From Eremomyces bilateralis CBS 781.70 (lineage: Eukaryota): a stretch of 64,000 nucleotides of DNA. The notes under the pieces were generated by a model. It was not told the DNA's origin. It ran no database searches and saw only the letters and a program-made list of their open reading frames with translations. Made by a program: the position numbers and the translations under genes. This document shows, piece after piece, positions 1-56,217 of this stretch; position 1 is the stretch's first letter; each line of letters starts with the position of its first letter. The stretch lies in the NCBI GenBank assembly GCA_010015585.1, contig ML975171.1; one strand, given 5' to 3'.

Positions 1-240
1 ACGTCGACGCTAGGTTGGCCATGCTGCTCAGCGTGGAAGAATGCTCTGCGCCAAGTATCCTTGAGCATATCTCTAACTCCTCCGCTTGCAGCTCTTCGGC
101 CTCCTTCCATCGGCCTTGATTCCTGTACGTCGACGCCAGGTTGGCCATGTTGGTCAGTGTGTCTGGATGCTCTGCGCCAAGCTCCTTCTTTTCCATCTCG
201 AGAACCTGGGAATAAGCGACCTCTGCCTCTCTCCATCGTC
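1..240 (-). repeat. 126-bp (42-aa) TPR tandem repeat array of the left NLR (partial)
   Basis: ATGCTCTGCGCCAAG recurs at 41 and 167 (period 126). Confidence 0.9.
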
Positions 241-2305
241 CGTCGGCGTCGAGGCACGTTCCATATCTCCATTGGAGATCTATCCTCTTCTTCAAATCCT
301 TCTGAACGAGGTCAGACTGTAGTACAACGCGCACGTGCGGCAGGTATGCCCTCCATATACTCCTGTTGGAGTGGGTATTGTCGGGGAAAATTTCCTCTAG
401 TCGCACGACTGCTTTCTCTGTCCACTGGACCAGTTGATCGTTCTCCTGAAGCCAGTTCCGAGTAGCTATATACACTAACCGATGAAGATCGACCGTATGA
501 CCTGCTGGACGTTTACTAATAAATGAATACGCGTAAAGCGTCCCGATAGCGTCTACCTCCTTCTTGCGAGATAGGCCGGGTGGAAAAAGACTCTGTGGGA
601 TATCTTTTGGCTCAATACATGCCATTAAAGACAAGTAGTCTGCTGCCAAAGAATCGTGCTGCTGAATTCGCTCGAACGATATTAGCCATGTTGTGGCTAC
701 TGGGTTCTTGATATTGCGGTATCTGCCGTCATCTTCAAAGTCTTCGCTCAGAAGTTCAATCATAGACTCATCCTGCTCATCAAGTAAGGAAAGATAGTCC
801 GCGATCGAGGTGCCGTTCGCATTGATATACGCTGCCGCCTGAACAATGGCGAGCGGGAGGTAAGTTAGCTGTATGAGTAAGGAATCAGTATCTGTTTGGC
901 AGGCAGCTACATCGTGTCCGATCAAGCATTTCTGTAATAGCTCTGAAGCCACCTCTGCGTTCATTTCCTGTACTTCTACCAAGTTCTGAGACGCCAGCTT
1001 GGTAGCAGCCTTCCTATCTCGCGTAGTAAAGAGGATACTTCCTCGCCTGCTCTTTGGAAGGTAGTCGAGGAGACGGAATGATTGTCTCTCAGCTGGTTTT
1101 CCCATCCACATATCCAAGTCGTCGGCGTTGTCAAACACCAGGAGCCACTGGCCCGCGCTTTCGTTACTGAGGTAGTTCTGAACTAGACGTTTCACGTCTG
1201 CTCCTTGCTCGTCTTTTCCAGGTATATCCAACTCTTCGGCGACTGCCGAGTACGCCTGAAGAAGGGTTTCGGGATCGGTTGCGGGAATCCAAAATACTGA
1301 GCAGTCCCTCTGTTTCTCCATGGTCCGATAGACCGTCTCAATCGCTAATTGTGTCTTCCCTACGCCTCCAAGCCCTGTAATTGCGACCTTTACGGTTTGG
1401 CCATGTCGAAAAAGTAGTTTTTCAATTCTAGAGAGTTCGGATTCGCGACCGGTGAAGCGAAGATTGCGCTCAAAGGGAATAGTACGTGCTAGCTTTTCGT
1501 CTAAACAATGGAACACATTAGCAAATGGAGATACAACATGAATAACAAAGACCTCACATGACCGCGATTTATGCTCAGAGTCCTTGATCTCTCGTCGCAA
1601 CCTTCTCATTGCATTCTCTTGCCCTTCGCCATATATAAGTGGCAAGAAAATGCCGAAAATTCCGAGGAGACAGTATGCCATGTCCTCCTCTTCGGTCGTT
1701 TGTCGCTTCTCGACCCATCGAAACCTCTCCTCAACGCTGAAGTCATGGAGAGGACGACGTTGGAGTGCCTCTATGGCGATTCCTGTTTCCTCGCAGATAT
1801 GTCGTTCAAGTGACTTTCTATCACCTAATCGGACGTGATCTCGGGAATAGAATTCGACTATTTTCGGCGCGAGAAGCTCTTGGAGTGTCCATCCTCGTCT
1901 AAACCATCGGTTATTGCGCAAAGACGACTCCCACTCGATATGTGCAGCCTGCCTATCCTGCGTGCGCACTGAAACGTCTAAGAGATAGACGTAGCATCGC
2001 GCTGCATTCTGGTACCAGCGAAACATAGAGTTTATCGCCTTCGTAAGTTCGTTGGGATCTGACTTGTCGATGCAGCATGTATCCACCCAGAAATAGGATA
2101 GACCGTCGGATTTGGCTTGACCCCCGCAGAATACCAGCTTGTGGTATCCAGCCTTATTCTTTCCAACACCGCCCACAACGTCCTTGAATGTGACTTCATC
2201 GCTGTCGCTTCCCCATGTATGAGAAAGTATGGCATAAGGAGGGATCGTGGTTCCGAAGGTCTCCAGGGTGAACCCGCCGTTGCCGTTGAGCTTTAAGAGG
2301 CGCAT
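1..2305 (-). CDS. NLR-like protein, HET - NB-ARC - TPR architecture (3' end runs off the window)
   Basis: Manual translation from ATG 2305: MRLLKLNGNGGFTLETFGTTIPPYAILSHTWG...FWVDTCCIDKSDPNELTKAINSMFRWYQNA (HET domain), IPFERNLRFTGRE, Walker A GLGGVGKT, Walker B LLVFDNADD, then 42-aa TPR units (LGAEHPDTLTNMANLASTYRNQGRWKEAEEL). Absent from the ORF track, consistent with no stop before the window edge. Candidate in-frame intron at 1501-1557. Confidence 0.93.
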   Translation of the reverse strand, partial: MRLLKLNGNGGFTLETFGTTIPPYAILSHTWGSDSDEVTFKDVVGGVGKNKAGYHKLVFCGGQAKSDGLSYFWVDTCCIDKSDPNELTKAINSMFRWYQNAARCYVYLLDVSVRTQDRQAAHIEWESSLRNNRWFRRGWTLQELLAPKIVEFYSRDHVRLGDRKSLERHICEETGIAIEALQRRPLHDFSVEERFRWVEKRQTTEEEDMAYCLLGIFGIFLPLIYGEGQENAMRRLRREIKDSEHKSRSCEVFVIHVVSPFANVFHCLDEKLARTIPFERNLRFTGRESELSRIEKLLFRHGQTVKVAITGLGGVGKTQLAIETVYRTMEKQRDCSVFWIPATDPETLLQAYSAVAEELDIPGKDEQGADVKRLVQNYLSNESAGQWLLVFDNADDLDMWMGKPAERQSFRLLDYLPKSRRGSILFTTRDRKAATKLASQNLVEVQEMNAEVASELLQKCLIGHDVAACQTDTDSLLIQLTYLPLAIVQAAAYINANGTSIADYLSLLDEQDESMIELLSEDFEDDGRYRNIKNPVATTWLISFERIQQHDSLAADYLSLMACIEPKDIPQSLFPPGLSRKKEVDAIGTLYAYSFISKRPAGHTVDLHRLVYIATRNWLQENDQLVQWTEKAVVRLEEIFPDNTHSNRSIWRAYLPHVRVVLQSDLVQKDLKKRIDLQWRYGTCLDADGRWREAEVAYSQVLEMEKKELGAEHPDTLTNMANLASTYRNQGRWKEAEELQAEELEICSRILGAEHSSTLSSMANLAST

Positions 2306-2611
2306 CGTTGGCCGTAGTAATCGACAGAGATTGTCATTATCGAGGAATCGTGACTGCTAGTCTGGGATATTCGAACAGCAGATTAGCAGGGTCGTAGACG
2401 CATCAAGACGAACCGCGACGATGTGAGGGGCTGACGGCTGACTTTTGTTCAAGATCATCTTAGATGGGGGTCATCGAAAAGCACGGATGTGCGGTGGTCA
2501 TTCAAATTCATATATCGACACAGTAATTATGAAAATACCTTCCAGGTTCCTGCTCTAGTCCCATCTAATTACTGTTCCTTCACACAGGGACACTCCACCC
2601 CACCCATAGAA

Positions 2612-2731
2612 TTATAAGAATTACAATATGTGTGGAGACTCTGAGTTGGGTTTGAAGTCAAAGTAATTACCCCGGATTCGTCCAAGCACAGCGGGTGTCC
2701 GATCAGTCCATCATGCAGTGGGGAAGGTTCG
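2612..2731 (+). repeat. Copy 1 of a ~110-bp dispersed repeat
   Basis: TTATAAGAATTACAATATG...CTGAG...TTTGAAGTCAAAGTA...GATTCGTCCAAGCACAGCGGGTGT...CCATCATGCAG...GGAAGGTT aligns with 2929-3035 (reverse) and 8662-8770. Confidence 0.85.
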
Positions 2732-2928
2732 TTGAATTTTCAAGAGTTCAAGACCAAGACCGACATCCACGATGTGCTAGCCATCCAGTCTAGCAAATAC
2801 TCCCGAATTCTGGGTCTTAAGGATGATGACTGCGGACTGGAGCTATCCATCTCGAGCAGTCTGGGACCTCACTACATCTACAATAGTAAGACAAAGCCCC
2901 ATCTCGCACATTCAAGTAACAAGATCTT

Positions 2929-3035
2929 CGTAACCTCCCCCCTGCGTGATGGAACACTCGCCGTGCTGGGACGAATCCAAGGTACTTTAACTTCAAACCG
3001 ACTCAGAGTCTGCACACACCTTATAATTCTTCTAA
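2929..3035 (-). repeat. Copy 2 (inverted) of the ~110-bp repeat
   Basis: Reverse complement reads TTAGAAGAATTATAAGGTGTGTGCAGACTCTGAGTCGGTTTGAAGTTAAAGTACCTTGGATTCGTCCCAGCACGGCGAGTGTTCCATCACGCAGGGG...GAGGTTACG. Confidence 0.85.
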
Positions 3036-3528
3036 TACTGTAAACTATGTTCTTCAACCAGTTCCCAATGTGCGGGACTATATCTACCTTCAATATTACA
3101 AAAGCCTGGTTACTAGTCGGCTAATTTCCGCAGAGTAATCGGAGTGCACTTGAGACGGCGTGGCAGTATTTTATGCTACAACGCCACTATCATCGTATTT
3201 TCTTTTAAAAAGATCACAAGCGGAACAAACTCATGCCATAGTATCCCGTTATTATGCTATAAATCCTTCGTCTAAAGTGTACGTTGTGTTGGAAACAATC
3301 TTAAATATTTCTACTACGCCGGTCGGTACTTGTGGTCGATCAAACTTCCGCTTTCGGCGATCCGTACAGCCAGGGGACTATGGATAAGTATTTTTATGGT
3401 AAACTAGCGCTGTCGATCTAAATTCTCTAATAGTGACGATGAAGTGAAGGAGTGAAGAGCGATGGTGGCTTAGAATTTAGAAGGTCCAACAACGAGGCTC
3501 CAACATCAACCTGATTAGTGTCTAGTTA

Positions 3529-5390
3529 AGACAGGACCCCCGGTTTGTAACCACCCCACTTTGTAACCAACTAAACCCCCTCAATCTGGAGATGAGACAG
3601 ATCAATAAAATACATCTACCACCACACAATCATGCTGTAACTGTGTCGAAATGCCTCCAGTTAATGAAGAGGCTATAAAGCTCGCGATTCAGGCTTATAT
3701 TAATAAAGAATTTGACTCTATACATAAGTGCGCGGACCAGTACGGTGTTACCTACTCCACGCTCCAAAAGCGCCTCCAAAACGACCGCCAATCGCACCAA
3801 ATTGGTGCTCAAAAGCTCCAGAAGCTGTCTCCTGTACAAGAACGATATCTAGCGGAATGGATAGCCCTGGAAGACCGGGCTTCGAATGCCCCCTCCCACG
3901 GCAGGGTTCGTCAAATGGCAGAAGCAATTGCCCGCGAAAATGGTGACCACACGCCTTGCGGGAAGAACTGGGTGGACGGATTCCTCAAGCGAAATCCCCA
4001 TATAAAAACTATGGTGGGCAAATCAATCGAAGCTTCCCGCGTAAATTGTTCGTCCAAGGAAATCATAGCGGCCTGGTTCAACCTTCTCCAGAGCCTGATC
4101 GACCAGTTTCACATCAAAACGGAGAATATCTGGAATTTCGACGAGCACGGGATTGCGCTTGGGTGCGGCGTAAATGGGCGTGTCTTAGCACCAATACAAG
4201 AGAAAAAGATGGGGAAGAACAGCAGGAAAAAGACCTATATCAAGACTCCGGAGGACCGCGAGTGGGTCTCCGTCATTGAGGCCATTTCAGCCGTTGGCCG
4301 CGCGATCTCTCCGCTCATCATCTTCAAGGGCAAAAACCTCCAATCTACGTGGTTCCCTGCGGATCTCTCGAGCACGAAGGACTGGCATTGGACAGTTTCA
4401 GAGAACGCCTGGACGTCAAACGAAATCGGGCTCAAATGGTTGGAGAAGAAGTTCCTCCCGGAGACCGCACCAAAAGACCGTACGGAATGGCGTCTCCTAA
4501 TTTGCGATGGGCACGGATCGCACGCGACGGTCGAGTTCATGAAGAAGTGTAAGGATAATAAGGTAATTGTCCTATATCTCCCTCCCCATTGCTCCCATCT
4601 GCTTCAGCCCCTAGATGTCGCTTGTTTTTCGGCCCTGAAGAGTAAATATCGCAAGGAATTAACCCAATTGAGCTCCCTCGACGACTCTGCCCCAGTTAAG
4701 AAGCATAATTTTATAAACATTTATAATAAATCCCGCATTGAAGCTTTGATAAACCATAATATCCGCGCTGGGTTCAGAGGCACCGGAATCTGCCCATTCA
4801 ACCCACACAAAGTATTAAATAGCACCCAATTAAACGAGAACCATACTATACAACGTCATGTGACCCCAGAGCCCATATATGATTATATATTTAATACACC
4901 CAAAGGCCCAAAAGACGTGTATACGGGGAAAAAGTTTGAGGACATGTCTGGACGGGATTTCAGGGGTTTACAGGGGAAATTGGCCAAGGCACTCTCAAAG
5001 AAGAACGTCGAAATCGCAGCACTGAAAGCGCAAGTTGCAAAGCTCGAAAAATCACTGGAAGACATAGGCGGATTGTCTAAGAAAAGGAAAAGAGTCCAAG
5101 TCGACCAAAATGAGCGATTTGCGACGATTGATCAGATTGTTGCTGCGCAAGAAGAAGCAAGACAAGCGGAGCTGAAGGAGGCGAAGAAGAAGCCCAAATT
5201 TGACGCGCAAAAAATTTCGGACGAGCTGCAAAAAGCAGAATTCGAATCACTTTGCTCACAGTTTCAGATATAATATATAAATTTCAATATTGGTGGAGTT
5301 ATTATACAGAATCTATAGTCCTCTGTTGTTGGTGTTGCTGCGTGTGAAGTGGTTACAAATCGGGGTGGTTACAAACCGGGGGTCCTGTCT
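3529..5390 (+). mobile_element. Full-length Tc1/mariner-superfamily Fot1/pogo-like DNA transposon, 1,862 bp
   Basis: 41-bp TIRs AGACAGGACCCCCGGTTTGTAACCACCCC..TTTGTAACCA at 3529-3569 and 5350-5390 (39/41 identical). TA duplication at 3527-3528 and 5391-5392. Internal transposase ORF. Confidence 0.96.
3651..5273 (+). CDS. Fot1/pogo-type DDE transposase (HTH + CENP-B-like HTH + DDE_1)
   Basis: 540-aa uninterrupted ORF with A..YGV.YSTL HTH, GKNWVDGFLKRNP, and catalytic motifs WNFDEHG / ICDGHGSH / QPLDV. Confidence 0.95.
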   Translation: MPPVNEEAIKLAIQAYINKEFDSIHKCADQYGVTYSTLQKRLQNDRQSHQIGAQKLQKLSPVQERYLAEWIALEDRASNAPSHGRVRQMAEAIARENGDHTPCGKNWVDGFLKRNPHIKTMVGKSIEASRVNCSSKEIIAAWFNLLQSLIDQFHIKTENIWNFDEHGIALGCGVNGRVLAPIQEKKMGKNSRKKTYIKTPEDREWVSVIEAISAVGRAISPLIIFKGKNLQSTWFPADLSSTKDWHWTVSENAWTSNEIGLKWLEKKFLPETAPKDRTEWRLLICDGHGSHATVEFMKKCKDNKVIVLYLPPHCSHLLQPLDVACFSALKSKYRKELTQLSSLDDSAPVKKHNFINIYNKSRIEALINHNIRAGFRGTGICPFNPHKVLNSTQLNENHTIQRHVTPEPIYDYIFNTPKGPKDVYTGKKFEDMSGRDFRGLQGKLAKALSKKNVEIAALKAQVAKLEKSLEDIGGLSKKRKRVQVDQNERFATIDQIVAAQEEARQAELKEAKKKPKFDAQKISDELQKAEFESLCSQFQI

Positions 5391-5625
5391 TACCTAACTA
5401 TTTGCTATAACTAACTACGGCTCTACTCTAACGCCGCCTTGGCTAGGCGCGGCTCTGCTACTCCGCCTCCCTTGCTGCCAGTCGTCAGCCCATATATACC
5501 CCAATCCATCCCAACTTCGAGTGCTTGTAAAGGCATCTCTGCGATGAATTGGTTCGATTGCCATCGGGTTCATGGCTCAAATCATCCTCTCGTGAGGCCC
5601 ACGCCTTCTTAAATCCAGTGTAACA

Positions 5626-8496
5626 ATGCGCCTTTTACAACTCGACGATTACCCCAGCTTCAGCCTGGCCGAGTTTGCCGAAGATGAGGTTCCTCGCTAT
5701 GCCATACTCTCGCACACTTGGGGACATGACGGCGATGAAGTCACGTACAAAGACATCACAGATGGCACTGGAAGTGGCAAGGCTGGCTACGACAAGCTCC
5801 ACTTCTGCGCAGTCCAAGCCAAGACTGACGGGCTGGGCTACTGCTGGATAGACACCTGTTGTATCGACAAGACAAATGCCGCCGAGCTTACCGAAAGTAT
5901 CAACTCCATGTTTCGATGGTACCAGAATGCCATCAAATGCTATGTTTTCCTTACGGATGTCTCGGCTTCTATGAGCGAAGATGACAGAGACTCCCAGCTA
6001 CGGAATAGTCGGTGGTTCACTCGAGGCTGGACGATACAAGAGCTCATTGCTCCCCGATGCGTCGAATTTTTCTCGCAAAAGCGCGAGCTGCTTGGAGACA
6101 GAAAGTCGCTAGAAAAGCAGATTCACCAAGTTGCTGGCATTTCCATTCACGCGCTTCGAGGGGAGCCGCTGTCTCACTTTACTATCGATGAGCGCATGTT
6201 ATGGGCGGCAAACAGAATAACCAAGCGACCCGAAGACAAAGTTTACTCTCTGCTTGGAGTTTTCGATATTCATATGGAAGCTATTTACGGCGAGGGCGAG
6301 CATCACGCATTTCGGCGGCTCCTTAGGGAGCTCGAGAGATATTCGGAAAACCACCAGTTAAGCGAGTTGTTTCGGGATCAACTACTAGTATCCTCCGCCA
6401 GACAGCCAAAAACACCCCTAGAAAATCCGACATGGGTTGTGCCGTTTGAGCGGAACTCTCGCTTCACTGGCCGTGAGCCTGAGCTGGCTCGGCTCGAAGA
6501 AATGCTGTTCAGCAAGCATCGTACCGCGAAGCTTGCGATCACTGGACTTGGAGGTGTAGGAAAGACCCAGCTTGTTATCGAGCTGCTGTACCGCGTCGCC
6601 GACAAGCAAAAGCACTGCTCGGTTATCTGGATTTCCGCAGTCAACATGGAAAGCCTACACCAATCATACTTGGACGCTACTCGGCAGCTTGGCATATCTG
6701 GATTTAAAGACAACAAGGCGGATATAAAGAGACTGGTGCAGGACCATCTGAGCAAAGAAAGTACAGGGCGGTGGCTGCTAGTGTTCGACAATGCCGACGA
6801 CATCTATATGTGGATTGCCAAGGCTGGACCTGGGCTGCAGCAGCCTGGGCAGGGATCGCACCCTTTGATCGACTACCTCCCAAAGAGTAAGCAAGGAGCT
6901 GTTATATTCACGACGCGGGACAGGAAGATAGCAGTCAAGCTCGCGCAACAGGACGTCGTGGACGTTCCGGAGATGGGAGAAGACGCGGCTTCCCAATTAC
7001 TAGGGAAGTGCCTGGTTAATACGGAGCTCGCCAAAAGCGGGAAAGAGACGGGTGCACTCCTTTTACAGCTCACCTACCTTCCGCTAGCCATTGTCCAGGC
7101 AGCGGCGTACATTAATGAGAATGCAATATTACTTACAGACTATCTGTCGCTCCTGGTCGAACAGGAGGAAGAGGTGATTGATCTCCTTAGCGAGGAGTTT
7201 GAAGACGACGGGAGGTATCGCGATATCAAGAATCCGGTAGCCACAACGTGGTTAATCTCGTTTGATCAAATCCGGCGGCGCGATCGGCTGGCGGCCGATT
7301 ACTTGTCGTTTATGGCCTGTGTAGAGCCAAAGGACATTCCACAGTCTCTTCTTCCGCCAGGGGCGTCGCGGAAGAAGGAGGTGGAAGCGATCGGAACACT
7401 TACCGCGTATTCGTTCGTCAATAGGCGGCCGGCCGACGAGTACCTCGATCTCCATCGGCTGGTGCATTTAGCAACGCGGAACTGGTTGCGGAAAGAAGAG
7501 CTGCTTGCGCAATTAACCGAGAAAACTATTATGCGACTAGAAGAAGTTTTCCCCGATGATAACCACGAGAACCGAAGCGTCTGGAGGGCTTACCTACCCC
7601 ATGCGCGCTATATGCTAGGGTCCAATCTTGTGGATAAAGATTGGAAACCCAGGATGGATCTTATGTGGAGGTACGGAATGTGTCTTTACAAAGATGGACG
7701 ATGGAATGAGGCTGAAGAACCGATTAATCAAGTGTTCGATATGGAGAAAAGAGTGCTTGGCGCGGAGCATCCCTCCACGCTGACCAGTATGGCCAACCTG
7801 GCGTCGACGTACAGGAATCAAGGCCGGTGGAAGGAGGCCGAAGAGCTGGAGGTGCAAGTGATGGAGACAAGAAAGAGGGTACTTGGCGCAGAGCATCCAG
7901 ACACGCTGAGCAGCATGGCCAATCTAGCGTCGACGTTTTGGAATCAAGGCCGATGGAAGGAGGCCGAAGAGNNNNNNNNNNNNNNNNNNNNNNNNNNNNN
8001 NNNNNNNNNNNNNNNNNNNNNNNNNNNNNNNNNNNNNNNNNNNNNNNNNNNNNNNNNNNNNNNNNNNNNNNNNNNNNNNNNNNNNNNNNNNNNNNNNNNN
8101 NNNNNNNNNNNNNNNNNNNNNNNNNNNNNNNNNNNNNNNNNNNNNNNNNNNNNNNNNNNNNNNNNNNNNNNNNNNNNNNNNNNCACGCTGACCAGCATGG
8201 CCAACCTGGCGTCGACGTTTTCGAATCAAGGCCGATGGAATGAGGCCGAAGAGTTAGAGGTGCAAGTGATGGAGACGAGAAAGAAGGTGCTTGGCGCAAA
8301 GCATCCAGACACGCTGACCAGCATGAACAATCTTGCCTTCACGTGGAAAGCGCAGGGTCGAGATCCAGAGGCTATCGGTCTAATGACGGAGTGTACACGG
8401 TTTCGAGAACGGGTTATAGGGGCTACCCATCCGCATTTCATTTCTTCCTCGAAAATCTTAGCGGATTGGGGCTTGAATGAGGCGCTCGTAAAATAG
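5626..8496 (+). CDS. NLR-like protein, HET - NB-ARC - TPR architecture (assembly gap in the TPR array)
   Basis: MRLL..YAILSHTWG..WIDTCCIDK..ELTESINSMFRWY..WFTRGWTIQELIAP (HET); VPFERNSRFTGRE; GLGGVGKT; WLLVFDNADD; LPLAIVQAAAYI; LHRLVH; TPR units LGAEHP(S/D)TL(T/S)SMANLAST..NQGRW.EAEEL. N-run at 7972-8183. Confidence 0.95.
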   Translation: MRLLQLDDYPSFSLAEFAEDEVPRYAILSHTWGHDGDEVTYKDITDGTGSGKAGYDKLHFCAVQAKTDGLGYCWIDTCCIDKTNAAELTESINSMFRWYQNAIKCYVFLTDVSASMSEDDRDSQLRNSRWFTRGWTIQELIAPRCVEFFSQKRELLGDRKSLEKQIHQVAGISIHALRGEPLSHFTIDERMLWAANRITKRPEDKVYSLLGVFDIHMEAIYGEGEHHAFRRLLRELERYSENHQLSELFRDQLLVSSARQPKTPLENPTWVVPFERNSRFTGREPELARLEEMLFSKHRTAKLAITGLGGVGKTQLVIELLYRVADKQKHCSVIWISAVNMESLHQSYLDATRQLGISGFKDNKADIKRLVQDHLSKESTGRWLLVFDNADDIYMWIAKAGPGLQQPGQGSHPLIDYLPKSKQGAVIFTTRDRKIAVKLAQQDVVDVPEMGEDAASQLLGKCLVNTELAKSGKETGALLLQLTYLPLAIVQAAAYINENAILLTDYLSLLVEQEEEVIDLLSEEFEDDGRYRDIKNPVATTWLISFDQIRRRDRLAADYLSFMACVEPKDIPQSLLPPGASRKKEVEAIGTLTAYSFVNRRPADEYLDLHRLVHLATRNWLRKEELLAQLTEKTIMRLEEVFPDDNHENRSVWRAYLPHARYMLGSNLVDKDWKPRMDLMWRYGMCLYKDGRWNEAEEPINQVFDMEKRVLGAEHPSTLTSMANLASTYRNQGRWKEAEELEVQVMETRKRVLGAEHPDTLSSMANLASTFWNQGRWKEAEEXXXXXXXXXXXXXXXXXXXXXXXXXXXXXXXXXXXXXXXXXXXXXXXXXXXXXXXXXXXXXXXXXXXXXXXTLTSMANLASTFSNQGRWNEAEELEVQVMETRKKVLGAKHPDTLTSMNNLAFTWKAQGRDPEAIGLMTECTRFRERVIGATHPHFISSSKILADWGLNEALVK
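7696..8350 (+). repeat. 126-bp TPR tandem repeat array of the right NLR
   Basis: CTTGGCGC.GAGCATCC at 7756 and 7882 (period 126), and a further unit after the gap. Confidence 0.9.
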
Positions 8497-8661
8497 AAGA
8501 GAGCAAAGAGCACGAGGAAGATAGCGCTATCGGGTAAAGTACAGTCGCTAAAACCCGAAATATATAGTCAGATGATTACCAGGTCTTCGTGGGGCTTCTA
8601 GAACTTCGTAAGTCTTGACCGTATGCTATATGCATCTCAGAAGCTATGGCAGGAAGTTGTG

Positions 8662-8770
8662 TTATAAGAATTACAATATGCATGGAGCCTCTGAGCTGTT
8701 TGAAGTCAAAGTACCTCGAGTTCGTTCCAGCACGGCGGGTGTTCCATCATGTAGGGGTGGAAGGTTACGT
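8662..8770 (+). repeat. Copy 3 of the ~110-bp repeat
   Basis: TTATAAGAATTACAATATGCATGGAGCCTCTGAGCTGTTTGAAGTCAAAGTACCTCGAGTTCGTTCCAGCACGGCGGGTGTTCCATCATGTAGGGGTGGAAGGTTACGT, about 165 bp after the right NLR stop. Confidence 0.85.
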
Positions 8771-9261
8771 GGTTTTCCCGTTCCAATAAAGACTATCTCT
8801 TGCTGCGCAGGAAGAGAGTTGACGACTCCTTATTGGCCAAGTTTCACTCAGAGGTGGAAAATGTTACGAAGGCGGCGAACCACTTCCGAACCGTAGAATT
8901 GAAGGTAAGCTGGCCGTCGCTGAACAGCATTATCACAGTAATGGAGATCGGCTCTGATCAATGGGACCAAAGAACGATCAGACGGCAGCTTCGCTGCATC
9001 CGGAACTGTGTTCTAGAAGCCATGAAGGAGTCGGGCCGTATGCGACATGAATTGGCGACACAAAGTAGCCGTAATGGTCCAGATGAAGAAAAGGACGAAG
9101 CGTCGCGGAAAGATCATCCAGACATTCAAGCCGATGTCAAGTCGTTCGATCAACTCTTAAAATAGGGGCAGAGTCCATTTCATGAGTACCGCCGACTCCT
9201 CGCGCTCGTCGGGCAGGACAGATATGCTGTTGCCTTAAAACAAGGCGTGTCTTGTCTCTGC

Positions 9262-10543
9262 CTAAAACGATGTCTGAACTTCCAGTAGACACCTTCCGAC
9301 TCCGCCAGCATCTTGTCCAAGATCAAAGTCGACAATTTCCCAAGCGACTCCACCGCCGTGGCCGATCTCCTGTCGAAACTCCTGCACTCCGCCTCCGACT
9401 CCAAAATAGACCTTCTTTGCAGCAATGATTGCTTTGCCCATTGATACTGGGCGCAGGGTATCCATCAGGACTGCAGAAAAGGTTTTTAGAGATGGGATGG
9501 AGTAGATCGTCTCTGACGCGACTACGAATGTGTTTAACTTGGCGGATGCGCCGTTAGTAGGGAAAAGAGACAGGAAAGGTGATGGAGGACACCAAGATCC
9601 CGATATAAGTGTCAAGTGAACTCCCGATTCCGATAGGTTCGCTAGGAACATTTCCTTCAGGGCCTCGGTAACGATGAGGTCTTCCGTCTGCCACTCTTCA
9701 TCTGGATCTGCATCGTTGAGGTTTGCTAGGGGATTCGGCTCACTCTCCGAGAACGGGTGTTCCGTTGCAGGGAGAGTGGAGCAGTATGTGAGGAATAGGT
9801 TTGGAAAAGAACAGGTGCGGAGGACGGAGGCGTTATAGTCGGTCAGGGTGAAGTACATCTGTAATGAGTTCACAAGAGCGTACTGGAACATAAGAAGGGT
9901 CGGGAGTGCCGTGCCACAGCCGAACTATCTGCTAGTTAATACTGAACTTTGCTTCTCACCTTCATACACTCATAAGGGCATTACCTCAATGATGTGATTC
10001 ACACGGCATAAATCGTCCAGATCTTTCCTAGGTCCTCGGTCTAGTAAATACTTGACGAGATCTATTGAACATTCCCAGCTCTTGAAACCGCCTTCGTAGA
10101 CATTTGTGGTGAGGTCCGAGTTGTCGAGCCCTTCGAGCGGCGCATTGGAGTCTCCCACATCTTCTGCCATCAACTGCATTCGGATATCAAACAGTTCTCT
10201 CCTAGGCAGCCGGATCCGGTGGCCCTGTGGAGACTCGATAGTGATGACATTATAAGATAACCTGGATGGGAGGCTCTCGACCTGATGGTGTTTCAGCAAA
10301 TGATTTTCGCTGGTCCAAAGTGTTTCAAGGCATGTAGTAAAAGCAATTGACTTTGCGGTAGAAAAGGTTGCATAAAAAGTTGGAAATACCTACAAGCTCC
10401 CTGATATCATGAGATTTGGGTGGCACCGACGGCTGGACCTCGCCCTCCGCCGTATCTATACTGCTCCCTTCCCCGGGTGTTTGAAGGTCATTTTCGTCGG
10501 CTTCAATATCATCTCCTCCAAATCCGAAGGCAAAGGACGACAT
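9262..10543 (-). CDS. HPM1: Histidine protein methyltransferase (Hpm1/METTL18-like), 3 exons
   Basis: MSSFAFGFGGDDI N-terminus, VYEGGFKSWECSIDL, spliced SAM motif I E|FGCGTALP, DYNASVL, ASETIYS, AAKKVYFGVGGG. Confidence 0.85.
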
Positions 10544-11197
10544 AGAGCAGATGTCCGGTATGGACTCCCAGTTCCCACCAAGGCCTCAACCTCGACGGTC
10601 AAATGCCAGGAATGGGGACTTTACACAAAAAGAGAACGAGATGTCAACTCAGAAATGGAAAGAAAGTACCGTAATACCCAGCTGACTTGCTCAGTTCGTC
10701 TACTCATATGAGAATTACAATATTACTTGGAGCCAACGGGATGTAAAACCTGAACATGGGGCAAAGCTGTGGACCATTTTTAGGTTCCGTTGGTAGGTGT
10801 ACCTCTAGAGTAATTAGTGCCAAACCCTGGGAACGTCACGAACAATTTTGGTCTACACACATTGGGCATTGTGCAACGAAACTGAGGATCTAGCCGTCAT
10901 TTGCTTTTCCCCTAATAGAATACTCAGTAATTATGTGCAATCAGGCTGTTGTGCTGCTGTGGTCCCCGGAGACGACGTCGGAGCCCCACTTAATCCCGAG
11001 AGACAGTCCGTGACAGTGAAGTTGGGGGAAATGGGGATCCGATAATGGGAAAGAAGGAGCTTCGGACAATAAAGATGGAATTAAACCGTAATATAAAATG
11101 ATAGATATCATGATGTTGGAATTAAGCATCCTATTTACAAAATTCCATACAACATCGGACATTATTCCTGAACCTCCTTGATTGCCCTGATATCAAC

Positions 11198-11854
11198 ATG
11201 GCTGGAAACATCACCTTCGACGGTATGTACGGCGCCAAGCCCCCAAGAAGCGCATACTCCTAACATTTCTTAGACTACCTCGGCCTCACCACCGCTCTCT
11301 TCGAATGGGCCGATTCCTACGACTCCAAAGACTGGGCCCGCCTCGCCAAATGCATCGCCCCAACCCTCCGGATCGACTACCGCTCCTTCCTCGACAAGAT
11401 ATGGGATGCGATGCCCGCGGACGAGTTCCTCGCCATGGCATCCGACCCGACCGTCCTCGGCGACCCGACGTTGAAGACCCAGCACTTCATCGGCGGCACG
11501 CGCTGGGAGAAAGTGTCTGAGGACGAGGTCATCGGCTACCATCAGCTGCGCGTCCCGCATCAGAAGTATACTGACGCGACACTGAAGGAGGTGGCGGTGA
11601 AGGGGCATGCGCATTCGACGAATATTCATTGGTATAAGAAGGTCGATGGCGTGTGGAAGTTCGCGGGCCTGAGTCCGGATATTCGATGGTTTGAGTATGA
11701 CTTTGAGAAGGTCTTTGCTGCCGGCCGCGAGGCGCATGGGGAGAAGAAGAATGAGGTCGTGTCGGCTGAGAAGACGGCGGCGGAGGTCGTGGTGAAGGAG
11801 ATTGGGGTGCCCGACCTTGCGAAGCAGGCCAGCGGCATTCCCGGGCAGGGATGA
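11198..11854 (+). CDS. SCD1: Scytalone dehydratase (DHN-melanin pathway)
   Basis: [76 protein letters not shown]; intron 11223-11273. Confidence 0.95.
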
Positions 11855-12205
11855 TTTCGTGACACCTTGGTCGGGGTGACTGGAGACATTCTGGAAGGCC
11901 TCATAGAGTGCAAGCATTGAAGCTAATGAGATCAATTGCCGTGGGCGACCAGATCAGCGCTTTCACTTTCAATATCTCTAAGGAACAGAAGGATATGGTC
12001 TCACAATCATCGAGCTCTCCTAGTTGCAGTAGCATAATATACATTTAAAAATTAAGGTCCAAGCATATATACATACGTTTGCTAAGTAACGCTTCCACCA
12101 ATGAGGTATTCATCGGCCCCAAGATTACGCCGTCCGCTTCCGCTTAAGAGTACTGAACGCCATCTGCCCGCTTCCAATATGATCAAACAAAAACCAAAGC
12201 CATCC

Positions 12206-52937: not shown

Positions 52938-54587
52938 TTATGCAGGAGGCAAGAACGCCCCATATAATCCCGCCTGTACGCCTGCGTAGATGATCATCCA
53001 CATCACAATCGCTTTTGGCGGCACCACCATCCTCCAAGTTGTGAACGGCACCATCAATGTGAGCTGCCATCGGCCCTGAACGGCCAAAGCAACAGCCATA
53101 TACCACAACGGATATCCGCTGCAAAGCCGCAGAACAATTTGCACATGGTAGGACATGATGGCTGTGACCGCGAGCAGGAGCTGCGGAATGGCAAGGCGCG
53201 CTAGCACCATCTTCTGTATCTCTTGTCCTTCGTCATCATCTTTCCTCGCCTTCTTCACTCCATCAGAGGCACCTCCTGACCTCGATTCCTTCCCAATCTT
53301 CTCACGAGAAATGGGCGATCGCTCAAACACAAGCTCCCCCCTTATCGCCGCCATACTACTTTGAATCAATAGACACAGCGCTGGCGCTACCATGACGAAC
53401 AGCGGCAAGTTCGGGACCGTCCAGTAATGCAGGAACCCCACGTCCCAGTACGTCGACTGGACAAAGGCATATATGCTTGGGGGGAAGCTCTTGCACCACG
53501 GCCGGGGTTCGCGAACTGCGGAGGACGCACCGCAAAACTGCTGCCACGCGAGATATTGCGGGTATGAGAATGTAAGGAGGACGAGAAGGCCCGACGGGAT
53601 GATGAGTGATGCTCGAAGGAGCGGGTGGGTTGGTGCGCGAGTGGCGAATAGGGGCGGAGAAGTAAAGAATTGCTGGGTGGCGGAGAGGATACGGCGGAAG
53701 AATGGGAGGCGGGCTAGGGGGTGAGAGAGGGTGGAGAGAAGGTCGAGGAGGTAGATCGCCCCGCTGAAGAGGCCATTGCTGCGGGGGAGAACGGCAAGGG
53801 ACAGCAAGATGGCGGAGGGGAGCAGCCAAAGGTGTCTAAGAGGAGACGGAGATGTGAATAAAGCCTTGTTGCTGTGGTAGAGGGACTGGAGATAGAAGTA
53901 GAGAGACGTGAAGTGTAAAAAGGAGAATAGTGATTCGCCGTAGGGGGCAGTTAAAAAGACACCAGCCGGGGAAAGGACGTGGAGCGCAGCAGTGGTGAAT
54001 GCAATTGAGTCATCAAAACCTGCGTGGTTTGAAGATCCCGTAATAAACAGCGTGAGGTAGTAGAGGACAAAAACCGATAAGAGGTGGGACGTATTCGTGA
54101 TGATCAAGCCAGACCAGATGTAGTTTAAGATTGATGACGATGCGGGATGGATGCCTGCTTGATTGTTAGCCGGTTCGACACGTGGATTATCAAGCATTAA
54201 CGAGCACATACAATCGGCAACATATCGAATTAACGTCGCAAAGCCCCAACTAAACGCCCATTGCTGCTCGTAGCGGTAACCGTCCCGGGCAATATCGGTG
54301 AAGTACACGGCATCCCAGCGAAGGAACCGGAGCAACCATCTCGATGACAGCGCTAGATGTGGAGACGTTGGTTTGTCGTAGACAGCTTCTGCACAATCTC
54401 TTACGGCCGAACCTCCGCCACCGAAGCCATTGCCCTCTCCTAGTAGATAGACGGAGGACGTGTCATAGCCAGACCATGGGCTGAATAATATAATGCCCAC
54501 TAGACAGGCTTTCCAGACGAGGAAAATGACGAGGAGGGAAAGAAGGGGATGGCGATGAGGCTCAATTCGTTGCCTCCATGTTGACAT
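52938..54587 (-). CDS. GPI18: GPI mannosyltransferase 2 (PIG-V)
   Basis: GYDTSS, LRWDAVYF..IARDGY.YEQQWAF, SPAGVFLTAPYGESLF, RSNG, YAFVQSTYWDVGFL.YWT..NLPLF, C-terminal FLPPA. Confidence 0.93.
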   Translation of the reverse strand: MSTWRQRIEPHRHPLLSLLVIFLVWKACLVGIILFSPWSGYDTSSVYLLGEGNGFGGGGSAVRDCAEAVYDKPTSPHLALSSRWLLRFLRWDAVYFTDIARDGYRYEQQWAFSWGFATLIRYVADCMCSLMLDNPRVEPANNQAGIHPASSSILNYIWSGLIITNTSHLLSVFVLYYLTLFITGSSNHAGFDDSIAFTTAALHVLSPAGVFLTAPYGESLFSFLHFTSLYFYLQSLYHSNKALFTSPSPLRHLWLLPSAILLSLAVLPRSNGLFSGAIYLLDLLSTLSHPLARLPFFRRILSATQQFFTSPPLFATRAPTHPLLRASLIIPSGLLVLLTFSYPQYLAWQQFCGASSAVREPRPWCKSFPPSIYAFVQSTYWDVGFLHYWTVPNLPLFVMVAPALCLLIQSSMAAIRGELVFERSPISREKIGKESRSGGASDGVKKARKDDDEGQEIQKMVLARLAIPQLLLAVTAIMSYHVQIVLRLCSGYPLWYMAVALAVQGRWQLTLMVPFTTWRMVVPPKAIVMWMIIYAGVQAGLYGAFLPPA

Positions 54588-56217
54588 TTGTGCGAATGAT
54601 TTTATATCCTTGACTATCTGTCAGATTGCCGGATATCTTTCAAGACCTCGAAAGCATTCGATGTATCGTCCAACTGTTTGGATTAGATTCGGCCGTCGAT
54701 CTCATGCATGTGATGGATCGGAGGTTCTGAGTTCGCCGTGGCCCCGATGTGCCGATATTCGTCCACGTTTCGGGCCGCTGATAGTCCGATGTTCCCACAC
54801 CATGCCCACTTCCCAGACTAAGAGTGAGGAGAGTGAATCAACTGTTAAGAGACCAGTGATGATTTTTGTGCTTAGAAGAGGCTGACCTTCACGCGGCATT
54901 TGCGGTGGAATTTAGGAATTAGGACGTCTCATTCGCTCAGCCAGTCCCGCATGCTTCCGAGTCTCAGCTCATCACCTGGGCAAATCTAGTTGTGCAACTT
55001 CTCTAATTACCGCAAGCACTGCCAATTTCTGTATAAGATCGACCTATCAGAGCAGCATTCGATCCAAGCGAGCGAATGGAATACCGCCCAAGTCTCAAAT
55101 GTCTCAGCTAAGTCAATACCGAGAAATGCAGGATACGGACATACGGACGTAGGGACGGATGTACGGATGTACGCGTATTAAACTCACCCTGCGTCCGTAC
55201 GAACTGGAACAACTCTCCTCCCCGGGTGAGGAACAGAAACATAAATCCGTAGCAGTTAGGTCATACCGTCTCAGGCTCTCAGCACATACCTCACCAATTT
55301 ATGGAGCATTCGTTGGTCGAGACCTGTTTGACGATTTGAGTTTTGACCGGACACGAAAAGGCCCCAAGACCCAAGTCCTTCACTTTGGTCATCCAATGAC
55401 GGCGGTGATCCTCAACTCGGTCGGGTGGTCGGGAGTCCGAGTGGGGATGTGAGGCGTTTTTGGTTTTTAACATGTCTGCACTTGGCCCCCGGCGTTGCTT
55501 GTGTTTAAGTAGGGCTGATCTGTGAGAGCCAAGATGCCCATGTCATGCTCACTACTTTTCGAGTTCAACGTGAGGTCAGAATCCAGATGGTATTCGAATC
55601 AAAGAGGTTGGAGAGGTGATGATAGTTGAAACGCCTTGAGTCGCTTTCTCCGTCACTGCTACACTGGTGGAGTCCACCCTTCCTGCTGATCTCACTACTT
55701 TATATGCGTTTGATTACGCCCTACACGAGCTTCTTCATCACCCACCACATTCCTCCCAATCTATGACCCTAGCCCATCCGTCGATTCCGGTTGGTGATTG
55801 GCACTACACATCATTCGCGTCACCATCCCACTTAATACTGTTCTGAACGCCCCCCTTGCCTCCAGAGCGTGTCCCCTGGAATTTTGTGACAGGAAACGCC
55901 GCGACATACCGCCCTCGGTTTGCTTTGCGAAAGTCAAGTGAAAGGATTGAGTTTAGATGCTCCATCTCAGGCGACGAAGCTTCCTTCTTTTCTCATCCAA
56001 TACTTGGGATCCCGTTCTCTTTCTATACGATCGTGCCTCTCAGGACTAAATCATCCAAGACCCCGCACTGCATCCATACACCGACTTAACCTCATACGAT
56101 CCTCACGATACGTCCGCCCCCCAGTCGTTCGAGGAGCTACGATGTTCCTCACCGATCATTTTCCGCGGTCCCGGTTTATAGACTAAACCGTGACTGTGAA
56201 TTTACCTTTCCATCACC

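What the first reader, a model, noticed from the sequence alone, without database searches (positions are those of the whole stretch)
1..8496. Head-to-head pair of HET-NB-ARC-TPR NLR genes
Seen: two same-architecture NLRs start at 2305 (-) and 5626 (+) and share one intergenic region, about 1.46 kb once the transposon is removed. Both keep the HET WxDTCCIDK..E motif, Walker A/B and LHRL motifs, so neither looks like a degenerate sensor-only partner. Established: HET is a cell-death effector domain on fungal NLRs, and divergent NLR pairs act as co-regulated units in plants (RPS4/RRS1, RGA4/RGA5). Inference: a co-regulated fungal paired-NLR immune or allorecognition module sitting next to core housekeeping genes.
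Basis: partly seen in the sequence, partly recalled or inferred. Interest (0 to 1): 0.75.

Follow-up and report, generated by a model that had tools for sequence, protein, structure and literature searches.

The report
Divergent pair of fungal NLR genes
Two complete, transcribed cell-death-receptor-like (HET/NB-ARC/TPR) genes of a dung fungus do lie head to head, but they look like two independent members of a large, transposon-associated gene family that ended up as neighbours, not like a plant-style sensor/helper pair.

Summary
Gene A (2..2305, minus; runs off the window) and gene B (5626..8496, plus) both pass Pfam thresholds for HET, NB-ARC and TPR_10/12. They are 59% identical and 3,320 nt apart. 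Gene B's TPR array contains a 211-N assembly gap.

Run X1, shown to be RNA by spliced contigs, covers gene B without differences. It also covers A's start and shows A's 57-nt intron spliced out. The annotated model of A has a normal C-terminal cap, so neither gene is truncated or silent.

The "co-regulated paired module" reading is not supported:
- A and B fall in two old, well-supported clades, and their synonymous sites are saturated.
- Each has closer relatives on other contigs (A 86%; B a near-identical degenerate copy).
- No other contig in this species or Zopfia carries both types.
- Neither has an extra domain or a degenerate motif.
- 0 of 30 metagenomic relatives with enough flank has a divergent NLR partner.

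Head-to-head, fully tripartite NLR pairs are already catalogued as rare in Sordariales. Verdict: an ordinary NLR mini-cluster and a new member of a known kind. Low to moderate interest.

The parts
2..2305 (-). Gene A: HET/NB-ARC/TPR NLR, start codon at 2305..2303; 749 codons in the window after splicing; continues beyond the window start
   Evidence: ORF; Pfam. The annotated model P0001 (792 aa, contig 365,953) supplies the C-terminal cap.
1501..1557 (-). 57-nt GT..AG intron of gene A, in the HET/NB-ARC linker
   Evidence: One search shows GTGAGG...TTTAG. In one search, run X1 has no depth at 1513 and 1553 while X2 and X3 do. Two X1 contigs ending at 1558 carry 11 further letters equal to 1500..1490. 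The spliced reading ...SRSYEKLAR... matches P0001 and paralogues P0002 and P0008.
2608..3039 (.). MITE-like non-autonomous element with imperfect terminal inverted repeats of about 100 nt, inside the spacer
   Evidence: Searches give arms 2608-2652/2995-3039, 2665-2705/2947-2987 and 2649-2665/2983-2999. Joints in the DNA runs show further copies elsewhere in the genome.
2285..3239 (.). Transcribed part of the spacer, contiguous with gene A's start codon: a long 5' leader of A or a separate non-coding RNA
   Evidence: X1 record 1 is 955 nt with 0 differences. Only 3 ORFs of at least 30 aa lie here, the longest 36 aa. No Rfam family or tRNA was found. Strand and ends cannot be read from contigs.
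3529..5390 (+). pogo/Fot1-like (Tc1/mariner superfamily) DNA transposon with intact 540-aa transposase ORF 3651..5273; TA target-site duplication at 3527-28 and 5391-92
   Evidence: Pfam DDE_1 130.8 bits, HTH_Tnp_Tc5 34.1, HTH_psq 30.5. 47-nt terminal repeat, 94% complementary. Sequence. It is multi-copy: X2 depth is 1,900-4,600 against about 230 in the single-copy flank.
5626..8496 (+). Gene B: HET/NB-ARC/TPR NLR, no intron in 5558..7584, at least 5 TPR units
   Evidence: ORF; Pfam. X1 record 4 covers 5558..7584 (2,027 nt, 0 differences, no joint). The annotated model is P0122.
7973..8183 (.). Assembly gap (211 N) inside gene B's TPR array
   Evidence: Repeat unit of 126 nt, family D1.
8662..8757 (.). 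Solo arm of the same MITE family, 166 nt downstream of gene B's stop codon
   Evidence: D3 (89% to 2612-2648) and I8 (87% to 2939-2998). No second arm was found.

Best explanation
These are two autonomous HET/NB-ARC/TPR NOD-like receptors from two anciently separated subfamilies of one expanded, transposon-associated family in Eremomyces bilateralis. They are neighbours in divergent orientation because NLR genes accumulate in small clusters, not because they form a functional unit.

Inferred from the family rather than shown here: each protein works as a self-contained STAND switch. The 42-residue TPR array holds the protein off and senses a ligand. Nucleotide exchange in the NB-ARC domain drives oligomerisation. 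The clustered N-terminal HET domains then trigger cell death.

The internal TPR units are kept nearly identical at the nucleotide level by family-wide repeat exchange. That explains the assembly gap and the strong TPR similarity between A and B.
For: Domains and motifs are intact in both genes. Both are represented in RNA contigs of X1. I take X1 to be RNA because it alone has GT..AG-type joints at 9924>9985 and 10279>10392, where the DNA runs are colinear. A's intron is spliced out.

Tree of 49 rows:
- A sits in a 6-row clade (SH-aLRT 100) with four same-species paralogues and one Zopfia gene.
- B sits in a separate 14/15-row clade (99/100) with genes of Zopfia, Glonium, Mytilinidion, Trematosphaeria and Lepidopterella.

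A against B: synonymous differences are saturated in HET and NB-ARC (pS 0.75-0.92). A has an intron that B lacks.

Closer relatives lie on other contigs: A-type genes at 86% and 81% on contigs of 559,338, 701,702 and 1,525,390 bp, and a B-type copy on 357,934 bp. Among the genes listed, only the window's contig (365,953 bp) carries both types. In Zopfia the best A-type and B-type genes are on contigs of 2,456,366 and 2,897,695 bp.

0 of 30 metagenomic loci with at least 2.5 kb upstream has a divergent second NLR of this family.

Literature: in Sordariales, 13 of 225 two-NLR clusters are head to head and 19 of 26 of those genes are fully tripartite. The authors conclude there is no convergence with plant pairs (PMC12258605, passages, Table S6).

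TPR homogenisation: at sites where A and B encode the same residue, the codon is identical in 33 of 35 cases in the internal TPR units, against 150 of 364 in the gene body (Fisher p = 3.8e-10). Metagenomic locus L005 is only about 40% identical in its N-terminal part, yet it carries units 91% and 87% identical in nucleotides to B's unit. The exchange, or conservation, is therefore family-wide rather than specific to A and B.
Against: - Adjacency of two members of one family within 3.3 kb is unlikely for randomly placed genes, so some process or selection keeps NLRs together.
- Divergent orientation with a spacer that was about 1 kb before the two insertions is compatible with a shared promoter.
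- Both genes appear in the same RNA sample.
- The non-conservation test rests on contig lengths as proxies for contig identity and on the best 120 hits of each search, not on real synteny.
- No genome of this or a related species could be read.
Confidence: 0.7

Rival explanations
1. A functional NLR pair. A and B are co-regulated from a once-compact bidirectional promoter and act together, for example as a hetero-oligomer or as two receptors guarding one process, as the first reader proposed by analogy with plant RGA4/RGA5 or RRS1/RPS4.
For: Head-to-head orientation. The two genes come from different clades, as plant pairs do according to the introduction of PMC12258605. Both appear in one RNA run. 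Both are intact.
Against: There is no integrated or non-canonical domain in either gene, and P-loop, Walker B and LHRLV are intact in both, so no division into sensor and helper is visible. The arrangement is not seen again at paralogous loci, in Zopfia, or in 30 metagenomic relatives. A 1.86-kb transposon and a MITE now split the spacer without either gene having decayed. B has a near-identical copy elsewhere with no A-type gene listed on that contig.
Confidence: 0.12
2. An allorecognition (het/vic) locus. One or both genes are polymorphic incompatibility determinants, and tight linkage keeps co-adapted alleles together.
For: [quoted passage not shown] B's internal units are 86% identical in residues (36 of 42, my count from the units printed) and 90% in nucleotides. 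High-internal-conservation NLRs are reported to be transposon-associated and under balancing selection in Podospora (PMC13449251, abstract and passages).
Against: No population data exist here. The apparent variants in DNA runs X2 and X3 are explained by the paralogous copy P0123 (1-nt deletion at 5637, 6-nt insertion at 5712, 1.6-fold depth), not by alleles. The TPR arrays are short (about 4 to 6 units).
Confidence: 0.1
3. The pair is a recent accident. Gene B arrived here as a roughly 3.1-kb cassette (about 5544 to 8660) duplicated from the locus that now holds P0123.
For: The X2 and X3 contigs that carry P0123-type variants start at 5544 and stop near 8654. The flanks 2285..3556 and 8690..12000 have 0 differences and single-copy depth. 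The cassette ends lie close to transposon ends (5390 and 8662). P0123's model begins at the equivalent of the upstream ATG at 5546.
Against: The direction of the duplication is unknown. The window copy is the intact, expressed one, while the other copy looks degenerate, which fits the window copy being the source equally well. Contig ends are not proof of duplication boundaries.
Confidence: 0.25

Closest known systems
Head-to-head NLR pairs catalogued in Sordariales (PMC12258605, Table S6)
   Same: Two adjacent, divergently oriented fungal NLR genes, mostly with complete N-terminal/NB/repeat structure and no integrated decoy. Two of the 13 pairs have the same architecture on both sides: Patatin/NB-ARC/TPR twice and amyloid/NB-ARC/TPR twice.
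   Different: None of the 13 is HET/NB-ARC/TPR on both sides; pair 4 has one such gene next to a HeLo-like/NACHT gene. The present pair is in Dothideomycetes (Eremomycetales). Its spacer carries two transposable elements.
Plant paired NLRs (RGA4/RGA5, RRS1/RPS4; names recalled, concept as described in the introduction of PMC12258605)
   Same: Head-to-head arrangement of two diverged NLRs.
   Different: Plant pairs split sensing and signalling, and the sensor usually carries an integrated decoy. Here both genes have the same full architecture, the same effector domain and intact ATPase motifs. No conservation of the pair was found.
Podospora HNWD/NWD family (het-e, het-d, het-r), the high-internal-conservation NLRs (PMC4986451; PMC13449251)
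   Same: HET effector domain on a STAND NTPase with near-identical repeats. Concerted evolution and repeat exchange between family members. Transposon association. Paralogues that decay.
   Different: That family has NACHT + WD40, not NB-ARC + TPR. Its members are dispersed, and incompatibility function is shown genetically there but not here.
Linked NLR/target allorecognition pairs such as plp-1/sec-9 (recalled; het-z/PaPlp1 is mentioned in PMC13449251)
   Same: Two tightly linked genes in which an NLR controls cell death.
   Different: There the partner is a non-NLR target protein, and function depends on allelic mismatch. Here the partner is a second complete NLR.

Membership tests
Fungal HET/NB-ARC/TPR NLR (STAND NTPase) | N-terminal HET domain above the Pfam gathering score, with its three conserved blocks | tested here: met
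   PF06985 scores 48.7 bits (A) and 44.7 bits (B) against a cutoff of 22.5. The blocks YAILSHTWG, W.DTCCIDK and RGWT.QEL are invariant in 11 sequences.
Fungal HET/NB-ARC/TPR NLR (STAND NTPase) | Central NB-ARC NTPase with Walker A, Walker B, TTR, LPLA and MHD-like motifs | tested here: met
   PF00931 scores 42.0 and 34.7 bits against a cutoff of 23.5. GLGGVGKT, VFD.AD, TTR, LPLA and LHRLV are invariant. ATP binding and hydrolysis were not assayed.
Fungal HET/NB-ARC/TPR NLR (STAND NTPase) | C-terminal array of 42-residue TPR units | tested here: met
   TPR_10 and TPR_12 are above cutoff in both genes. 126-nt tandem units. Units listed. Unit number is uncertain in both genes (window edge for A, N gap for B).
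High-internal-conservation (HIC) NLR | Repeats more than 85% identical over at least 100 residues (criterion quoted from PMC4986451) | tested here: inconclusive
   B unit 2 against the post-gap unit: 36 of 42 residues (86%, my count) and 90% nucleotide identity. Only about 2.5 internal units are readable because of the gap, so the 100-residue criterion cannot be checked.
Plant-type sensor/helper NLR pair | Head-to-head adjacent genes sharing a short promoter region | tested here: inconclusive
   Orientation is met. The spacer is 3,320 nt now and about 1,020 nt without the transposon, its TA and the MITE. Promoter sharing is not testable from contigs.
Plant-type sensor/helper NLR pair | One member specialised as sensor, with an integrated decoy or other non-canonical domain, or degenerate ATPase motifs | tested here: not met
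   Pfam finds only HET, NB-ARC/AAA-type and TPR families in both genes. Motifs are intact in both. P0001's C-terminus is an ordinary TPR cap.
Plant-type sensor/helper NLR pair | The pair is conserved as a unit in relatives | tested here: not met
   By contig-length proxy, only 1 of 6 A-clade genes in the tree shares a contig with a B-clade gene. 0 of 30 metagenomic loci with flank show it. Real synteny was not available.
Plant-type sensor/helper NLR pair | Physical and genetic interdependence of the two proteins | not testable with these tools
   Needs co-expression and interaction assays.
Heterokaryon-incompatibility (het/vic) locus | Allelic polymorphism among isolates that controls vegetative incompatibility | not testable with these tools
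   Only one strain's data were found. The X2/X3 variants trace to a paralogue.
pogo/Fot1-like Tc1/mariner transposon (the spacer element) | DDE_1 transposase with CENP-B/Tc5 and psq helix-turn-helix domains, terminal inverted repeats, TA duplication | tested here: met

The most novel reading that the evidence does not exclude
The B-type gene is a mobile NLR cassette. About 3.1 kb of gene with minimal flanks, bounded by transposon ends, has a near-identical second copy in the genome. B-type genes are 82-87% identical in protein across at least four other named genera of Dothideomycetes that I recall belong to several orders, whereas a neighbouring housekeeping protein is only 33-36% identical to its listed orthologues in other Dothideomycete lineages. 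TPR units 91% identical in nucleotides also occur in an unrelated metagenomic NLR. On this reading, HET/NB-ARC/TPR genes, or at least their repeat units, move between loci and perhaps between species. The head-to-head pair would be a landing event that lets two inverted TPR arrays exchange repeats.
Probability: 0.12. Interest if true: 0.7.

Novelty: new member of a known kind. Interest (0 to 1): 0.3.

Why it matters
If the two genes really acted as a unit, this would be the first evidence that fungi evolved paired NLRs, a point the only systematic survey (Sordariales, 2025) argued against. As it stands the locus matters less. It is a clean, transcribed example of an NLR mini-cluster in an under-studied Dothideomycete order. 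It shows transposon insertions in the shared spacer, a decaying duplicate elsewhere and nucleotide-level homogenisation of TPR units. It is useful as a case for how fungal NLR repertoires grow and exchange repeats, and it cautions against reading head-to-head orientation as functional pairing.

Tried and rejected
- Whole-genome search and synteny: no genome is held for this window, and no fungal genome collection is available. The pair's conservation was therefore judged only from contig lengths in the protein tables and from metagenomic loci.
- The look-up of sequencing runs: no RNA holder is listed as such. X1 carried only a guessed RNA label. I treat it as RNA solely because of its spliced contigs.
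- Parts without a listed X1 contig (3240..3527 and 5393..5557) are not used as evidence. Contig ends cannot show transcription starts, and joints at 3286 and 8662 suggest that repeats break the assembly there.
- Depths were not used to compare expression of A and B. Paralogue contigs pile up on gene A at 90% likeness.
- Apparent SNPs of X2 and X3 in gene B were first considered as strain polymorphism. This was rejected in favour of the paralogue P0123.
- A-B-specific gene conversion of TPR units was considered and rejected as specific, because locus L005 from another organism has equally similar units.
- Recent local inverted duplication as the origin of the pair was rejected (59% identity, saturated synonymous sites, separate clades).
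- Rfam, tRNA and small-ORF scans of the spacer found nothing of note.
- The search of earlier findings: three look-ups, nothing returned.
- Complex prediction and structure prediction were not run. I do not claim binding, and paralogous NB-ARC domains would be expected to score by likeness alone.
- The single housekeeping comparator did not list orthologues from Zopfia, Glonium or Mytilinidion, so the cross-order conservation contrast is only a hint.
Full report
WHAT IS THERE

The window starts inside a minus-strand ORF (2..2305, 768 aa, open at the edge). It also contains a plus-strand ORF, 5626..8496, of 956 codons. Both pass the Pfam gathering thresholds for HET, NB-ARC and the 42-residue TPR_10/TPR_12 families. 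They are 59% identical over 775 aligned residues.

In an 11-sequence alignment the following are invariant:
- the three HET blocks (YAILSHTWG, W.DTCCIDK, RGWT.QEL);
- Walker A (GLGGVGKT) and Walker B (VFD.AD);
- TTR, LPLA and the MHD-like LHRLV.

The motif names are my own labels.

THE SPACER

The spacer 2306..5625 is 3,320 nt. It holds a pogo/Fot1-like DNA transposon at 3529..5390:
- 47-nt terminal inverted repeats, 94% complementary;
- TA on both sides;
- an intact 540-aa ORF with DDE_1, HTH_Tnp_Tc5 and HTH_psq domains.

1. The remaining spacer also contains a 432-nt MITE-like element (2608..3039) with imperfect inverted ends of about 100 nt. A solo arm of the same family lies 166 nt behind gene B's stop codon (8662..8757).
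2. Gene B's TPR array contains 211 N (7973..8183). That length does not fit the 126-nt repeat register, so unit number and frame across the gap are unverified.
3. Gene A has a 57-nt GT..AG intron (1501..1557).

ORGANISM AND COMPLETENESS

The protein database lists annotated models on a 365,953-bp contig:
- P0001 (792 aa, no source shown, the tool's convention for a protein the window itself encodes) for gene A;
- P0122 for gene B;
- P0161 for the window's GPI mannosyltransferase.

The last two are named Eremomyces bilateralis CBS 781.70.

P0001 continues beyond the window. It ends in a cap unit (…MNNLSFTWKA…HPHF…) that parallels gene B's last unit (…MNNLAFTWKA…HPHF…). Gene A is therefore not truncated in the genome.

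Both annotated models contain doubtful introns. P0001 removes conserved NB-ARC stretches that all paralogues keep. P0122 removes 15 residues that the RNA contig retains.

TRANSCRIPTION

One search found four runs holding the region. All are kept as assembled contigs. X1 was labelled RNA only as a guess. Laying the runs supports that label:
- X1 alone has a 2,224-nt contig lying on 8307..9924, 9985..10279 and 10392..10702.
- The skipped pieces are 60 and 112 nt, with CT..AC ends (GT..AG on the minus strand).
- The DNA runs X2 and X3 are colinear across that stretch.

For gene B, an X1 contig of 2,027 nt lies on 5558..7584 with no difference and no joint. Gene B is represented in RNA and is intronless there.

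For gene A:
- A 955-nt X1 contig (0 differences) covers 2285..3239, that is the start codon plus 934 nt of spacer including the MITE.
- X1 has no depth at 1513 and 1553, where X2 and X3 do.
- Two X1 contigs ending at 1558 carry 11 more letters that equal 1500..1490. This is the spliced junction.

Paralogue transcripts could contribute within the coding region, but the 2285..3239 contig is locus-specific. Strand, ends and levels cannot be read from contigs, so co-regulation remains untested. The transcribed spacer has no ORF above 36 aa, no Rfam family and no tRNA.

RELATIONSHIP OF A AND B

I built a tree of the HET + NB-ARC part. It has 49 rows: the 2 window genes plus 47 proteins that I picked from the 160 then held. 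I chose named taxa plus the closest unnamed hits. HET-less hits such as P0020 and P0051 were left out.

- Gene A falls in a 6-row clade (SH-aLRT 100) with four same-species paralogues and one Zopfia rhizophila gene.
- Gene B falls in a different clade of 14/15 rows (99/100) with genes of Zopfia, Glonium, Mytilinidion, Trematosphaeria, Lepidopterella and unnamed sources.

Synonymous differences between A and B are saturated in HET and NB-ARC (pS 0.75-0.92). The pair is therefore not a recent inverted duplication. It joins members of two old subfamilies.

Each gene has much closer relatives elsewhere:
- A-type genes at 86%, 86% and 81% on contigs of 559,338, 701,702 and 1,525,390 bp.
- For B, P0123 on a 357,934-bp contig.

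P0123's model starts at the equivalent of an upstream ATG (5546) and lacks HET block 3. Contigs of X2 and X3 carry a 1-nt deletion at 5637, a 6-nt insertion at 5712 and scattered substitutions. Their depth on gene B is 1.6 times that of the flanks. The flanks 2285..3556 and 8690..12000 show no differences. I read this as a second copy of a roughly 3.1-kb segment (about 5544 to 8660) that is nearly identical in nucleotides and degenerate. It is not allelic variation.

IS THE ARRANGEMENT CONSERVED?

Real synteny could not be examined. Two proxies were used.

1. Contig lengths. Among the genes listed, the window's contig is the only one carrying both an A-clade and a B-clade gene, so 1 of 6 A-clade genes in the tree has such a neighbour. 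In Zopfia the best A-type gene (P0005) and the best B-type gene (P0101) are on contigs of 2,456,366 and 2,897,695 bp.
2. Metagenome scan. 596 stretches matched, 573 were confirmed as relatives, and the best 80 were kept. By my count from the table, 30 of the 80 have at least 2.5 kb upstream of the match. None of the 30 has a divergent second HET/NB-ARC gene of this family. Two loci (L018, L071) have a divergent HET-only gene. These relatives are distant (at most 69% identity), so this gives a background rate rather than an orthologue test.

LITERATURE

- A survey of 82 Sordariales genomes looked for exactly this arrangement (PMC12258605; passages, Table S6). 26% of NLRs lie in clusters. 13 of 225 two-NLR clusters are head to head. 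19 of those 26 genes are fully tripartite, and only one carries a non-canonical domain. The authors conclude that fungal NLRs have not converged on the plant type of pair. None of the 13 is HET/NB-ARC/TPR on both sides.
[quoted passage not shown] It reports that most NLR TPR motifs are 42 residues long, that HET NLRs are often associated with highly conserved repeats, and that the family evolves by birth and death.
- PMC13449251 (abstract and passages) reports transposon association, repeat exchange between distinct NLR genes, and introgression for high-internal-conservation NLRs.
- PMC7082219 (passages) places Eremomyces in its own order and lists E. bilateralis among the saprobes sampled on dung.

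I found no paper on these two genes. The only search bearing on that was the species name (13 papers), and I read none of those for NLRs.

REPEATS

At sites where A and B encode the same residue, the codon is identical in:
- 150 of 364 cases in the gene body;
- 14 of 34 in the first, degenerate TPR unit;
- 33 of 35 in the internal TPR units (Fisher p = 3.8e-10).

pS between A's and B's internal units is 0.20, the same as between B's own units (0.21). This is the signature of concerted evolution.

As a control, metagenomic locus L005 is only about 40% identical in its N-terminal part, yet it has units 91% and 87% identical in nucleotides to B's unit. The homogenisation, or conservation, is therefore family-wide and says nothing special about A and B.

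MECHANISM

- Shown: two intact, transcribed tripartite NLR genes; their separate descent; transposon activity in and around them; homogenised repeats.
- Inferred from the family: each protein is an autonomous STAND switch in which TPR-mediated sensing releases NB-ARC-driven oligomerisation and HET-domain cell death.
- Inferred: their adjacency reflects the tendency of NLR genes to cluster, possibly helped by a recent cassette duplication of B, rather than joint function.

I put this at 0.7. The rivals are a true functional pair (0.12), an allorecognition locus (0.10) and, as a non-exclusive statement about origin, recent arrival of B (0.25).

A SIDE OBSERVATION WORTH FOLLOWING

B-clade proteins are 82-87% identical over 660 residues to genes from Zopfia, Glonium, Mytilinidion and Trematosphaeria. 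The window's GPI mannosyltransferase 2 is only 33-36% identical to the named Dothideomycete orthologues listed. That list did not include those same taxa, so the contrast is only a hint of unusual constraint or horizontal spread.

VERDICT

The functional-pair interpretation is not supported, although it is not excluded. This is a new member of a known kind, of low to moderate interest.

Noticed in passing
window 7973..8183: A run of 211 N sits inside gene B's TPR array. Its length does not fit the 126-nt repeat register, so the annotated product (P0122 jumps the gap) and any repeat count for B are unreliable.
   Followed up: partly
window about 5544..8660 (seen through runs X2 and X3, and protein P0123): Gene B with minimal flanks has a second, nearly identical but degenerate copy on another contig (357,934 bp). 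That copy has a 1-nt deletion at 5637 and a 6-nt insertion at 5712, and its model lacks HET block 3. The segment's ends lie next to transposon ends.
   Followed up: partly
window 4551..5392: Run X4, labelled as a different organism, holds only the 3' half of the pogo-like transposon at over 99% identity (1 difference in 432 nt and 2 in 389 nt) at low depth (about 5). This could be horizontal transposon transfer or cross-sample carry-over.
   Followed up: no
window 2310, 3286 and 8662/8698 (joints in DNA runs): DNA contigs join the first bases upstream of an A-type start codon directly to the MITE arm, and join 3286 to 8662 on opposite strands. Copies of the MITE therefore sit right next to other family members elsewhere in the genome.
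   Followed up: no
genes A and B against proteins P0101, P0133, P0139, P0125, P0005; window 52938..54617: B-type NLRs are 82-87% identical, and A-type 81%, to genes of other Dothideomycete genera. The neighbouring GPI mannosyltransferase 2 is only 33-36% identical to its listed orthologues. This is unusually strong conservation for an NLR, or horizontal spread.
   Followed up: partly
L005:12404-12655: A metagenomic NLR whose HET/NB-ARC part is only about 40% identical to A and B carries TPR units 91% and 87% identical in nucleotides to gene B's unit 2. The repeat units are conserved, or exchanged, far beyond the gene bodies.
   Followed up: partly
L018:1489-3216 (-) with 3754-7551 (+); L071:2360-2827 (-) with 2888-5830 (+): In two metagenomic contigs a HET/NB-ARC/TPR gene lies head to head with a gene that has a HET domain and no recognisable NTPase. 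This is a different kind of divergent HET pair.
   Followed up: partly
window 8307..10702 (-): A neighbouring gene convergent to B has two confirmed introns (9925..9984 and 10280..10391), and its product has no Pfam family. Its RNA contig overlaps gene B's last 190 nt and the solo MITE arm.
   Followed up: no
proteins P0001 and P0122 (annotated models of A and B): The public gene models contain doubtful introns. P0001 removes two conserved NB-ARC stretches that are present in all paralogues. P0122 removes 15 residues that the RNA contig 5558..7584 retains.
   Followed up: partly
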